Shown here piece after piece: positions 5,279 through 28,008 of a stretch of 32,000 bases of DNA. Position 1 is the stretch's first letter. The number at the start of each line of letters is the position of its first letter. A model generated the notes under the pieces. The model was not told the DNA's origin. It searched no databases and saw nothing but the letters and a program-made list of their open reading frames with translations. The position numbers and the translations under genes were made by a program. Source of the DNA: Candidatus Jordarchaeales archaeon (GTDB lineage Archaea > Asgardarchaeota > Jordiarchaeia > Jordiarchaeales > Freyrarchaeaceae); contig JAWAHN010000001.1 in the NCBI GenBank assembly GCA_038889235.1, positions 1,078,803-1,110,802 on the forward strand, read 5' to 3'.

Positions 5279-5385
5279 TGGTGGGCGGGCCAGGATTCGA
5301 ACCTGGGACCTCCGCCGTGTGAGGGCGGCTTCTCGCCCCTAAGTGAACCTTTCAGAGGGCGTCATAACCGCTAGACTACCCGCCC
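5279..5385 (-). tRNA. tRNA-Val(CAC) with a 31-nt non-canonical intron (best fit 25/26, 5330-5360); CCA encoded
   Basis: Minus strand: acceptor GGGCGGG/CCCGCCC-ACCA, anticodon arm CCGCC-CTCACAC-GGCGG, T arm CCAGG-TTCGAAT-CCTGG. Removing 31 nt gives a 76-nt tRNA. Confidence 0.93.
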
Positions 5386-9518: not shown

Positions 9519-9611
9519 GGGCCCCTAGCTCAGCCTGGTAGAGCTTAGAGCGCTAAAAGCACCCGGTTTGCACCCGGGAGGCCGCGGGTTCAAATCCCGC
9601 GGGGTCCACCA
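9519..9611 (+). tRNA. tRNA-Ala(TGC) with a 16-nt intron at 22/23 (9542-9557); CCA encoded
   Basis: Acceptor GGGCCCC/GGGGTCC with the G3:U70 Ala identity pair, anticodon arm CCCGG-TTTGCAC-CCGGG, T arm GCGGG-TTCAAAT-CCCGC. The intron interrupts the D stem. Confidence 0.94.
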
Positions 9612-26662: not shown

Positions 26663-26840
26663 TGGGGGAACACCTCCCCGCAAACGCCTACCATGGCTTT
26701 TTTTATTAACGACGCTTGCTCAAGTTACCGTTTATCTTTACAGCAGCCGAATACGAGCCGTTTGAACACTCAACCCCCTTCTATATAAATTTTCTAGCCA
26801 GCAATAGTTTGCTTGAACCTCAAGGGGGTAACAGTCAAAA

Positions 26841-26857
26841 GGGAAAAGCTTTATATT
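26841..26857 (+). promoter_or_regulatory. BRE/TATA promoter of the permuted 5S rRNA precursor
   Basis: GGGAAAAGC-TTTATATT ending 24 nt before the 5' arm at 26881. Confidence 0.75.
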
Positions 26858-26880
26858 CGCTTTTTTGGTTGATAATTCCT

Positions 26881-27038
26881 GCTGGGCGCCACGGCGTGAA
26901 AGTCAAGCCCGCATGCGATTCGGCGAGTACTGCTGTGCGGGAGCCAGCGGGAAAGCCGAATGCTGGCGCTACGGCGCCGGCCATAGCATGCGGGGATATA
27001 CCCGTTCCCATTCCGAACACGGATCCGTGGCGTCCAGC
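26881..27038 (+). rRNA. rrf: Circularly permuted 5S rRNA gene: 5' arm 26881-26900, 5S 3' half 26901-26969, UACG linker 26970-26973, 5S 5' half 26974-27023, 3' arm 27024-27038
   Basis: GCCATAGC...ACCCGTTCCCATTCCGAACACGGA (5' half) lies downstream of AGTCAAGCCC...GAGTACTG...GGGAAAGCCGAA (3' half). Helices I-V can all be formed. Confidence 0.95.
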
Positions 27039-27043
27039 ATGTG

Positions 27044-27059
27044 CTTTTCTTCTTGTTTT
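27044..27059 (+). terminator. Oligo-T terminator after the 5S precursor
   Basis: CTTTTCTTCTTGTTTT immediately after the 3' arm. Confidence 0.6.
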
Positions 27060-27126
27060 CCAAGGTAACTTTAATACAGGGTACCTATCCTTCTTTTTCT
27101 GTGAAGTGTTCGTTGGGGTTGTATAT

Positions 27127-28008
27127 ATGACAAAGCCCAGGCTTTACATAGATGAGAGCAGTCCTCCTATATCCGATAACCTCTACGAAAAGATAGCCGC
27201 GCACAGGAAGCTTTACAGGAAGCTTGTTTTCTCCGGCAAGGCTGTTAAGCGTCTTAGGGGGATTTTGCCCTCTTCAGAATTGGTGAGGATGCTCAGGGGG
27301 GGCGGGGGGAAGCTTAGGCGCTTCGATATAATGATCGAGTTGTATTGTGACGTTGAGACTGAAAGTAGAGTTAAGTCTCTGTACGACGAAGTGTGTAGCA
27401 CGTACCCGCCTCAAAAGTCGTCTATTAGTCTTGCGTCAGAAGGCGAGGAGCCTGCCCCCCTGAGGCTCGGGTTGAGCTGGGAAGACGTCTCGTTCGATGC
27501 TTGGGCACTTATAGAGCGTTTTTACAGCGTCATAGAGGAACCATTCTACGTTAACTTCGAATTCGAAGACGACGAGAAGGTGGTGTCCGCCGTAAATCTC
27601 TCAGTTCCCTTCGATGAGGAAAGGAGGCAGTTCTACCTCGTGGAGCTTGTCACCCCGTTCAGGGTGAAGTATCCTAGTGGGGAAGAAAGGTTACTGGGCA
27701 AGCTTTCGTCGCTTGTGGAGGAGGTAACGAGCAACCCAAATGTGACCCCCGAGCTTTTTGTGATCGGTCGAGGCGGCATGTGGAAGCCGCTGATAACCGT
27801 CGGCTGGTCTTTTAACGATGGCCGCTTACTCGTGAAGGTTCCAGAGTGGAATGGTAAGGGTGGAATAGAGTTCATCTTGGACCCCATTAACGGCAAGGTT
27901 CAACTGATCAAGGGAGATCTTAAGGTTGAAAAGGACGGTAAGCTGGGGAACGTGTCGCTCGATGCCGTTCAGTTTTTCGAGCTGGGGGGAGATGAGCTCT
28001 CAAGTTAG
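27127..28008 (+). CDS. Hypothetical protein (293 aa)
   Basis: ATG 27127 (MTKPRLYIDE) opens a long ORF with protein-like composition. The upstream part of the ORF-track call overlaps the 5S gene and is not considered coding. Confidence 0.7.
   Translation: MTKPRLYIDESSPPISDNLYEKIAAHRKLYRKLVFSGKAVKRLRGILPSSELVRMLRGGGGKLRRFDIMIELYCDVETESRVKSLYDEVCSTYPPQKSSISLASEGEEPAPLRLGLSWEDVSFDAWALIERFYSVIEEPFYVNFEFEDDEKVVSAVNLSVPFDEERRQFYLVELVTPFRVKYPSGEERLLGKLSSLVEEVTSNPNVTPELFVIGRGGMWKPLITVGWSFNDGRLLVKVPEWNGKGGIEFILDPINGKVQLIKGDLKVEKDGKLGNVSLDAVQFFELGGDELSS

What the first reader, a model, noticed from the sequence alone, without database searches (positions are those of the whole stretch)
26881..27038. 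Circularly permuted 5S rRNA gene (3' half encoded before 5' half)
Seen: 26901-26969 is the 3' half of an archaeal 5S rRNA (AGUCAAGCCCGC, helix V UUCGGC/GCCGAA, loop E GAGUA/GAAA, helix IV with a GGGA tetraloop). Positions 26974-27023 are the 5' half (GCGCCGGCCAUAGC...ACCCGUUCCCAUUCCGAACACGGA). Joining 27023 to 26901 gives CCGAACACGGA|AGUCAAGCCC, the conserved 5S sequence, with no base missing or duplicated. The break falls in the conserved AA bulge of helix III (about A52/A53, E. coli numbering). The unit has its own TATA box and T-rich terminator. Known: permuted genes are described for tRNAs (Thermofilum, some algae) and the Thermoproteus SRP RNA. I do not know of a permuted 5S rRNA gene. 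A linear covariance model could miss it or call it a fragment, which might explain 'missing' 5S genes in related genomes.
Basis: partly seen in the sequence, partly recalled or inferred. Interest (0 to 1): 0.97.

Follow-up and report, generated by a model that had tools for sequence, protein, structure and literature searches.

The report
Back-to-front 5S rRNA gene, rejoined as ring
This hot-spring Asgard archaeon (Jordarchaeia) encodes its only 5S ribosomal RNA with the back part in front; public RNA data show the transcript cut out and rejoined at the predicted spot, most likely as a closed 123-base ring, and the same layout across Asgard archaea explains why their 5S genes look missing.

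Summary
Window 26901-26969 is the 3' part of a 5S rRNA, 26970-26973 is a UACG tetraloop that caps helix I, and 26974-27023 is the 5' part. Leader (26880-26898) and trailer (27018-27039) pair into a canonical bulge-helix-bulge (BHB) motif. Its two cut sites fall at 26900|26901 and 27023|27024, which is what rebuilds CACGGA|AGUCAAGCC.

Rfam sees only two sub-threshold pieces, and this 95%-complete genome has no other 5S. The rejoined sequence matches a profile of canonical Asgard 5S end to end (64 bits, against 33 + 17 in swapped order).

New here is RNA evidence. One metatranscriptome holds a 153-nt contig, identical to the window, that closes on itself at 27023>26901 and lacks the flanks. A second study's raw reads, from a sister species, show the same joint. 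All nine of its reads cross the UACG cap.

The layout is found in 88 of 151 Asgard genomes sampled and in 70 of 71 pattern matches across a collection of about 185,000 species genomes. I found no paper that describes it. The scan has noted it before on other Asgard DNA.

The cut-and-join step is shown. That the ring itself sits in the ribosome is inferred (about 0.7).

The parts
26842..26857 (+). Archaeal promoter: purine-rich BRE-like GGAAAAGC (26842-26849) plus TATA box TTTATATT (26850-26857). It lies about 23 nt upstream of the first base of the leader helix.
   Evidence: for the sequence. AAAGCTTTATATT is identical in all four genus members, and TTTATATT sits at a similar distance in family- and order-level relatives. 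The transcription start near 26880 is inferred from the usual archaeal TATA-to-start spacing.
26880..26894 (+). Leader strand of the outer helix of the processing stem (UGCUGGGCGCCACGG).
   Evidence: 15 contiguous pairs with 27025-27039; relatives keep the helix with quite different sequences, which is compensatory change.
26895..26898 (+). 5' strand of the central 4-bp helix of the BHB motif (CGUG).
   Evidence: the BHB conformer is only 2.1 kcal/mol above the minimum free energy.
26899..26901 (+). 5' three-base bulge AAA. The predicted cut lies between 26900 and 26901, so A26901 is the first kept base.
   Evidence: The rule that the cut falls after the second base of each 3-nt bulge is from my own knowledge of the archaeal splicing endonuclease. 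The position agrees with the RNA joint.
26901..26969 (+). 5S rRNA 3' part: 3' strand of helix II, helix V, loop E, helix IV with GGGA loop, and 3' strand of helix I.
26970..26973 (+). UACG tetraloop joining the native 3' and 5' ends and capping helix I (8 bp, 26962-26969 with 26974-26981).
   Evidence: for the fold; 41 of 57 distinct caps in Asgard loci are YNCG tetraloops; every RNA read laid in X15, and the X7 contig, run through it.
26974..27023 (+). 5S rRNA 5' part: 5' strand of helix I, loop A, 5' strand of helix II, helix III and loop C.
27018..27021 (+). 3' strand of the central BHB helix (CACG). The same bases form part of helix III in the finished RNA.
   Evidence: The Rfam alignment shows ACGG paired within helix III.
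27022..27024 (+). 3' three-base bulge GAU. The predicted cut lies between 27023 and 27024, so A27023 is the last kept base.
   Evidence: joint 27022>26900 with one ambiguous base, which equals 27023|26901.
27025..27039 (+). Trailer strand of the outer helix (CCGUGGCGUCCAGCA).
   Evidence: the precursor fold has a z-score of -6.0.
27045..27059 (+). T-rich tract TTTTCTTCTTGTTTT, the probable archaeal transcription terminator.
   Evidence: T-rich tracts follow the trailer in relatives. Its function is inferred.

Best explanation
This is the organism's single, functional 5S rRNA gene, written in circularly permuted order. Its own promoter gives a transcript of about 170 nt (inferred). Leader and trailer pair into a bulge-helix-bulge motif. 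The tRNA-splicing endonuclease cuts after the second base of each bulge (26900|26901 and 27023|27024), and the RtcB ligase joins A27023 to A26901. That join rebuilds the conserved loop B/helix III sequence and closes a 123-nt ring in which helix I is capped by a UACG tetraloop.

Shown here: the permuted order, the BHB geometry, the enzymes in the genome, an RNA with exactly this joint that lacks the flanks, and purifying selection on all five helices.

Inferred: which enzymes act, and that the closed ring, rather than a re-opened linear form, is the 5S in the ribosome.

My odds are about 0.95 that the gene is real and its RNA is cut and joined at these sites. They are about 0.7 that the ring is the mature ribosomal form.
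For: (1) Order and identity. All five 5S helices come out of a consensus fold of 20 permuted genes from 13 families: 94.4% of cells are paired against 32-45% when partners are slid, 27 of 33 pairs show changes on both sides, and 0 of 500 shuffles reach the observed values.

(2) It is the only 5S. RF00001 finds nothing else in the 2.14-Mb, 95%-complete genome, and the permuted model R1 finds one copy at 148.8 bits.

(3) BHB motif. A 15-bp outer helix, a 4-bp central helix and two 3-nt bulges are in register with the 5S junction. The conformer lies 2.1 kcal/mol above the minimum free energy. In relatives the outer helix has unrelated sequences but stays paired: the median is 11 bp in 72 distinct loci against 5 bp with shuffled trailers. 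Where the BHB is shifted by one base (G029, G039, G012, G004, G033), the predicted break shifts from A|A to A|G and the product is still the canonical GGAAG.

(4) Enzymes. The genome has two splicing-endonuclease paralogues and one RtcB.

(5) RNA. Run X7 has one contig of 153 nt at depth 10, with 0 mismatches, laid as 26914-27022 followed by 26900-43. That is 123 + 30 bases, the form a closed 123-nt cycle would take in a 31-mer graph, assuming Logan's word length is 31, which I did not check. Depth is zero in both flanks. X7 holds 0.86 of the sampled words of the mature part but only 0.43 of the words when flanks are included. Run X15, from another study, gave 9 reads from the sister species. 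None lies in the flanks, all point to a + strand RNA, all cross the UACG cap, and 2 (with 2 different starts) show the same joint.

(6) The cap is a stable YNCG tetraloop in 41 of 57 distinct Asgard versions. That fits a retained structural element rather than a spacer to be discarded.

(7) E. coli ribosomes work with a 5S whose native ends are closed by a tetra-loop (Huang et al. 2020, PMC7283268).
Against: - No direct test of circularity was possible (RNase R, northern blot, ribosome-bound RNA). A cyclic contig could also arise from a mixture of two linear forms, one holding the joint and one holding the cap.
- Read numbers are small: 9 and 2 reads, from 3-5% samples of the runs. The X15 joint has only 24 bases on its shorter side, and those reads come from a sister species.
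- The inner side of the BHB is weak, with a G.A mismatch followed by 2 bp, so the motif is relaxed on that side.
- Which enzymes cut and join was not tested.
- An Infernal score for the rejoined sequence could not be obtained.
Confidence: 0.7

Rival explanations
1. The ring is only an intermediate. After BHB cutting and ligation it is re-opened in or near the UACG cap, giving a linear 5S with ordinary helix I ends. This is how permuted tRNA genes are expressed.
For: Permuted tRNAs of Cyanidioschyzon follow this route (Soma et al. 2007, as cited in PMC4267664). Circular 16S/23S intermediates are commonly thought to be re-linearised (PMC12918454). Contigs cannot tell a ring from a mixture of forms.
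Against: All 9 X15 reads cross the cap, and no pile-up of molecule ends is reported there. The X7 contig holds cap and joint in one closed cycle. The cap is a conserved, stable YNCG tetraloop or an extended hairpin, not a variable spacer. No RNase P/Z-like signal is apparent. A capped helix I works in E. coli.
Confidence: 0.17
2. The working molecule is the permuted linear RNA, unligated or nicked at the loop B site, as in brown-algal mitochondrial 5S. On this view the joined molecules are a minor by-product, like the sporadic circular 5S isoforms of Sulfolobus and Halobacterium.
For: Brown-algal mitochondrial 5S stays permuted in the final product (PMC4267664). Circular 5S isoforms with variable ends, possibly degradation products, occur in archaea with normal genes (PMC12558985).
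Against: - The joint is precise and sits at the BHB cut sites, not at variable positions.
- It is the only form assembled in X7, at depth 10, with no linear end there.
- The BHB is conserved with compensatory changes across more than 20 families.
- A one-base shift of the BHB is matched by a one-base shift of the break so that the product stays canonical. That makes sense only if ligation matters.
Confidence: 0.06
3. The locus is a rearranged pseudogene or an assembly artefact, and the real 5S gene lies in unassembled sequence.
For: The genome is a MAG in 8 contigs, 95% complete. rRNA genes are often missing from MAGs.
Against: - DNA runs from three studies hold the locus, two of them with all sampled words.
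- The same layout occurs in six single-contig relatives (G006, G011, G021, G031, G034, G076) and in 88 of 151 Asgard genomes.
- All helices show strong covariation.
- The promoter is conserved.
- The RNA is expressed and processed.
Confidence: 0.01

Closest known systems
Permuted SRP RNA gene of Thermoproteus tenax (Plagens et al. 2015, eLife, PMC4731332)
   Same: An essential non-tRNA structural RNA gene is circularly permuted. The new ends lie in a functionally important conserved region. [quoted passage not shown] RNA-seq shows the termini ligated, and the product is a stable, functional circular RNA.
   Different: The RNA here is a ribosomal RNA (5S) rather than SRP RNA. It occurs across most of a phylum, Asgard archaea, rather than in a few Thermoproteus species. 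The native ends are capped by a conserved tetraloop. No biochemical test has been done here.
Circularly permuted tRNA genes (Cyanidioschyzon merolae; Soma et al. 2007, cited in PMC4267664; also Thermofilum, from my own knowledge)
   Same: The 3' part is encoded before the 5' part. Leader and trailer form a BHB-type motif. Expression passes through a circular RNA made by the splicing machinery.
   Different: In tRNAs the ring is re-opened at the linker to give normal ends. Here the linker is a conserved tetraloop that all observed reads retain.
Permuted mitochondrial 5S rRNA of brown algae and other stramenopiles (Valach et al. 2014, PMC4267664)
   Same: A 5S rRNA whose helix I is a closed hairpin and whose gene escapes the standard covariance model.
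   Different: In the algae the RNA stays permuted, with open ends at the junction of the alpha and gamma domains and no ligation. Here the break is in loop B/helix III and is resealed at a BHB. The host is an archaeon, not an organelle.
Circular pre-16S/pre-23S rRNAs and circular or permuted 23S rRNA of archaea (PMC7758197, PMC12918454)
   Same: A BHB in a processing stem is cut by EndA and the excised rRNA is circularised. For 23S the circle may persist in ribosomes.
   Different: Those genes are colinear with the RNA and circularisation is not needed to restore a conserved sequence. PMC12918454 states that 5S rRNAs are not known to take this route.
Engineered cp5S rRNA in E. coli (Huang et al. 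2020, PMC7283268)
   Same: The native 5S ends are closed by a tetra-loop, and ribosomes carrying it are active.
   Different: It is an artificial construct, opened at loop C or D and fused into 23S rRNA. It is neither a free ring nor natural.

Membership tests
5S rRNA (Rfam RF00001) | Covariance-model score at or above the gathering score (38 bits) | tested here: not met
   In genomic order the window gives only 21.5 and 19.3 bits. This is the expected failure of a linear model on a permuted gene. The rejoined sequence could not be given to Infernal with these tools.
5S rRNA (Rfam RF00001) | Full-length sequence likeness to canonical 5S once the parts are put in order | tested here: met
   A profile HMM of 8 canonical Asgard 5S genes matches the rejoined 119-mer over HMM 5-115 at 64.2 bits (E 1.4e-21). 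Genomic order gives split hits in swapped order.
5S rRNA (Rfam RF00001) | Three-way junction with helices I-V, supported by covariation | tested here: met
   33 pairs in 5 helices, 94.4% of cells paired, 27 pairs with changes on both sides, 0 of 500 shuffles as high.
5S rRNA (Rfam RF00001) | It is the 5S of the ribosome (sole copy; present in 50S subunits) | tested here: inconclusive
   It is the sole 5S-like locus in the genome and it is expressed. Presence in ribosomes cannot be tested here.
BHB-processed permuted RNA genes (permuted tRNA, Thermoproteus SRP RNA) | The 3' part is encoded upstream of the 5' part, with the native ends linked | tested here: met
BHB-processed permuted RNA genes (permuted tRNA, Thermoproteus SRP RNA) | Leader and trailer form helix, 3-nt bulge, 4-bp helix, 3-nt bulge, with cut sites that restore the native sequence | tested here: met
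   The outer helix is 15 bp, the central helix is CGUG/CACG, and the bulges are AA|A and GA|U. The inner helix is weak (a mismatch plus 2 bp), so the motif is relaxed on the inner side.
BHB-processed permuted RNA genes (permuted tRNA, Thermoproteus SRP RNA) | The host encodes a splicing endonuclease and an RtcB-type ligase | tested here: met
   PF01974 gives two loci (111 and 77 bits) and PF01139 gives one locus (600 bits).
BHB-processed permuted RNA genes (permuted tRNA, Thermoproteus SRP RNA) | RNA molecules carry the predicted junction and lack leader and trailer | tested here: met
   the cyclic X7 contig and 2 X15 reads carry the joint, and depth in the flanks is zero. Searches give the word shares.
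BHB-processed permuted RNA genes (permuted tRNA, Thermoproteus SRP RNA) | Cleavage of the precursor by the endonuclease in vitro or in vivo | not testable with these tools
   This needs recombinant EndA and precursor RNA.
Permuted organellar 5S rRNA (brown-algal mitochondrial type) | The final RNA remains permuted, with open ends and no religation | tested here: not met
   Junction-spanning RNA is present in two studies. The break site also differs: loop B/helix III here, the alpha/gamma junction there.

The most novel reading that the evidence does not exclude
The covalently closed 123-nt ring, not a linear molecule, is the 5S rRNA that sits in the large ribosomal subunit of this archaeon and of most Asgard archaea. 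These ribosomes would then carry an rRNA with no ends. They would depend on the tRNA-splicing endonuclease and ligase for an essential ribosomal component, in the lineage closest to eukaryotes.
Probability: 0.6. Interest if true: 0.92.

Novelty: new variant of a known kind. Interest (0 to 1): 0.88.

Why it matters
5S rRNA is a universal ribosomal RNA, and its gene is usually considered trivial to find.

- A permuted 5S gene that must be cut and religated, and probably ends up as a ring, makes ribosome production depend on the tRNA-splicing machinery.
- It adds a third class of RNA, after tRNA and SRP RNA, to BHB-dependent gene permutation.
- It is not a curiosity of one species. It occurs in most sampled families of Asgard archaea, the closest known relatives of eukaryotes.
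- It explains a practical problem. 5S genes 'could not be predicted' in closed Asgard genomes (PMC8813620), so completeness standards for MAGs that ask for 5S fail for this phylum. A permuted covariance model fixes that: model R1 scores 57-149 bits on these genes.
- It gives a directly testable prediction for the cultured Asgard strains and for any Asgard ribosome structure: helix I closed by a tetraloop and no free 5S ends.

Tried and rejected
- Infernal RF00001 on the rejoined sequence. I used a profile HMM instead.
- First attempts at look-up of sequencing runs failed because the machine was busy and were repeated.
- Run X14 (RNA raw reads, about a 3% sample) laid no read. That is no test.
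- X11 gave only 2 partial reads, at about 26990-27023, with no joint.
- The flanks inside the laid stretch served as the silent control.
- My first control for the outer helix, pairing leaders and trailers of different loci, was spoiled by close relatives that share flanks. I replaced it with shuffled trailers. Those still reach 8 bp or more in 8% of trials, because that search is not tied to the junction register.
- The MAFFT alignment of the flanks (A1) does not line up the outer helix, because the BHB shifts by one base between lineages. The outer helix was therefore analysed anchored on the cut sites in a script and is not part of model R1.
- Pseudogene and assembly artefact: rejected (see rival explanations).
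- One of the 71 pattern matches (L071, Terriglobia) is a chance match without 5S features.
- Eight literature searches found no description of a permuted or BHB-processed 5S gene in archaea. The library lacks most subscription journals, so this does not prove that none exists.

Full report
**What is in the sequence**

One search shows, on the + strand:
- a TATA box TTTATATT (26850-26857);
- a leader, UGCUGGGCGCCACGG-CGUG-AA (26880-26900);
- the 3' part of a 5S rRNA (26901-26969);
- UACG (26970-26973);
- the 5' part of the 5S rRNA (26974-27023);
- a trailer, U-CCGUGGCGUCCAGCA (27024-27039);
- a T-rich tract (27045-27059).

The unit lies between a minus-strand ORF that ends at 26683 and a plus-strand gene that probably starts at ATG 27127.

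Rfam at its curated thresholds reports no 5S in the window. With loose thresholds it reports two pieces in the wrong order, 21.5 and 19.3 bits against a cut-off of 38. These two pieces are also the only RF00001 matches in the whole 2.14-Mb, 95%-complete genome.

**Is it a 5S?**

Joining 26974-27023 to 26901-26969 gives a 119-mer that folds into the canonical three-way junction at -59.4 kcal/mol. A profile HMM built from eight canonical 5S genes of other Asgard genomes matches it in one piece (HMM 5-115, 64.2 bits, E 1.4e-21). In genomic order the same profile gives HMM 46-117 first (32.9 bits) and HMM 4-49 second (16.7 bits).

The reciprocal test also holds. A profile of permuted units hits canonical genes as two pieces in swapped order.

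A consensus fold of 20 permuted genes from 13 families recovers helices I-V. On that structure:
- 94.4% of cells are standard pairs, against 32-45% when the partners are slid by one to three columns;
- 27 of 33 pairs show changes on both sides;
- none of 500 shuffles reaches the observed values.

Within the genus there is one visible compensatory change in helix II, G26911A with C26991U. These genes are under selection as 5S rRNAs.

**The processing signal**

They form:
- a 15-bp outer helix (26880-26894 with 27025-27039);
- directly next to it, a 4-bp helix (CGUG 26895-26898 with CACG 27018-27021);
- two 3-nt bulges on opposite strands, AAA (26899-26901) and GAU (27022-27024).

This is the bulge-helix-bulge (BHB) motif of the archaeal splicing endonuclease. 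From my own knowledge of that enzyme, it cuts after the second base of each bulge. That gives 26900|26901 and 27023|27024, exactly the ends needed to rebuild ...CACGGA|AGUCAAGCC....

The BHB conformer costs only 2.1 kcal/mol more than the minimum free energy of the precursor. The precursor folds far better than shuffles (z = -6.0). The inner side of the motif is weak, with a G.A mismatch followed by two pairs, so it is a relaxed BHB on that side.

The genome encodes two endonuclease paralogues and one RtcB ligase. That these enzymes act here is inferred.

**Comparative support for the signal**

In 72 distinct permuted loci the outer helix has a median of 11 contiguous pairs, against 5 when the trailers are shuffled. 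Its sequence differs completely between lineages, for example:
- GGUAGUAUCG/CGAUACUACC in Odinarchaeia;
- AAACUCGCAUCGGGA/UCUCGAUGCGAGUUU in G039.

The most telling point concerns several lineages where the BHB sits one base further along (G029, G039, G012, G004, G033). There the break moves from A|A to A|G, and the ligated product is again the canonical GGAAG. That is hard to explain unless cutting and ligation at the BHB make the functional molecule.

Six DNA runs from three hot-spring studies hold the locus, two of them with all sampled words.

One metatranscriptome, X7 (study P4), holds 0.86 of the words of 26901-27023 but only 0.43 of the words of 26860-27060. Laid on 26840-27080, X7 gives a single contig:
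- it is 153 nt long, at depth 10, with no mismatch;
- it runs 26914-27022 and then 26900-26943, a joint that 'goes back 123' with one ambiguous base, which equals 27023|26901;
- depth is zero in both flanks.

153 = 123 + 30 is the length a closed 123-nt cycle would take in a 31-mer graph. This rests on my recollection of how Logan contigs are built and was not checked. The silent flanks argue against DNA carry-over.

In a second study (P1), raw reads of run X15 gave 9 reads from a sample of about 5% of the run:
- they carry four fixed differences that match the sister species G003;
- none lies in the flanks;
- all have the first mate on the minus strand, which means a + strand RNA if the library is of the usual stranded type;
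- all cross the UACG cap;
- two, with different starts, show the same joint (24 bases on the shorter side, so weaker evidence on its own).

So an RNA that is cut out and joined at the predicted place exists. Its cap is present in every molecule seen.

**Ring or re-opened?**

The data favour a ring that persists.
- Cap and joint lie in one closed contig.
- No read ends pile up at the cap.
- The cap is a YNCG tetraloop in 41 of 57 distinct versions (UUCG 19, UACG 7, UGCG 6 or more, CUCG 5) or an extended hairpin. That is what one expects of a retained structural element.
- E. coli ribosomes tolerate a 5S whose native ends are closed by a tetra-loop (PMC7283268).

Against this, read numbers are small, contigs cannot separate a ring from a mixture of forms, and nothing here shows which form is in ribosomes. 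I put the ring as the mature form at about 0.7 and a tRNA-like re-opening at about 0.17.

**Distribution**

Earlier notes of this scan call this genome Asgard, Jordarchaeia. The named records agree: the genus-level relatives are 'Candidatus Jordarchaeum sp.' and 'Jordarchaeia/Jordarchaeales archaeon' MAGs.

A covariance model of the permuted form (R1) finds full-length matches of 57-149 bits in 88 of 151 Asgard genomes sampled, in 20 of 27 families. These include six single-contig genomes (G006, G011, G021, G031, G034, G076).

Families f7 (0 of 26 with R1), f12, f16 and f10 instead have a canonical 5S (50-85 bits with RF00001) and give at most weak R1 matches.

A DNA pattern that requires loop E before loop A before loop C was scanned over a collection of one genome for each of about 185,000 species. 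It gave 71 places. By record title they cover:
- Jordarchaeia, Freyarchaeota, Atabeyarchaeia, Odinarchaeia, Heimdallarchaeota and Hodarchaeota;
- Helarchaeota, Hermodarchaeota, Baldrarchaeota, Njordarchaeota, Thorarchaeota and Promethearchaeota;
- unnamed archaea.

The exceptions are three records:
- one chance match, in a Terriglobia record;
- a true permuted 5S on a contig binned as a bacterium, which is probably mis-binned;
- a record labelled Thermoproteota that is identical to the Jordarchaeia-family relative G004.

I found no sign of this layout outside Asgard. The pattern was derived from Asgard sequences, though, so this is a weak negative.

**Literature**

Eight full-text searches found no report of a permuted or BHB-processed 5S rRNA gene in archaea.
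- A 2026 paper on circular archaeal rRNAs states that circularisation concerns 16S and 23S 'but not 5S rRNAs' (PMC12918454).
- Wu et al. 2022 wrote that 5S genes 'could not be predicted' in their Heimdallarchaeum genomes (PMC8813620). My pattern finds two permuted copies in each of those two closed genomes.
- Known relatives of the phenomenon are the permuted, circularised SRP RNA of Thermoproteus (PMC4731332), permuted tRNA genes, the unligated permuted mitochondrial 5S of brown algae (PMC4267664), and sporadic circular isoforms of normal 5S (PMC12558985).

This scan has already noted the same layout on other Asgard genomes. Those notes are unchecked AI notes. I re-derived the claims here and added the RNA evidence.

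**Verdict**

The gene is a BHB-dependent, circularly permuted 5S rRNA gene whose transcript is cut and rejoined at the predicted bases. It is a new variant of a known kind of system, of high interest. The remaining open point is whether the ring itself is the ribosomal 5S.

Noticed in passing
window 5282-5385 (-): A tRNA gene with encoded CCA and an insert of about 26 nt after the D arm, which looks like an intron at a non-canonical position. Rfam aligns it only by skipping the D arm, and ARAGORN misses it.
   Followed up: partly
window 9519-9611 (+): A tRNA-Leu(TAA) gene of 93 nt. Rfam matches only model positions 9-63, so it probably carries one or more introns.
   Followed up: no
window 27065-27077 and 26716-28008: GGTAACTTTAATA downstream of the 5S unit is conserved in all four genus members. 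It is probably the promoter of the next gene (ATG 27127). A reading frame stays open from 26716 right through the 5S unit, so gene callers could extend or invent a protein over it.
   Followed up: partly
L021, L025 (Atabeyarchaeia-type); L014, L031 and many Heimdall-type loci among L036-L105: The BHB next to the outer helix is followed by an extra 25-30 nt before the 5S 3' part begins. In the Atabey type there is a second copy of CGUGAGAG. This suggests a nested second processing element or intron inside the permuted 5S.
   Followed up: partly
family f9 genomes, e.g. G017:C88:195-360, G037:C142:8295-8459: Permuted 5S matches are about 165 nt long instead of about 137, so they carry an insert of about 30 nt. 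These genomes gave no RF00001 match at all, even at E<=10.
   Followed up: no
L041 (DATKTP010000169.1) and L096 (JAPDJY010000015.1): A 10.5-kb contig in a MAG labelled 'Candidatus Deferrimicrobium' (a bacterium) carries an Asgard-type permuted 5S and is probably mis-binned. A MAG labelled Thermoproteota carries a unit identical to that of the Jordarchaeia-family relative G004.
   Followed up: partly
G034 and G076 (two R1 matches each); CP084166.1 (L057, L086) and CP084167.1 (L066, L077): The closed Heimdallarchaeum genomes carry two permuted 5S copies each, whereas this genome has one.
   Followed up: no
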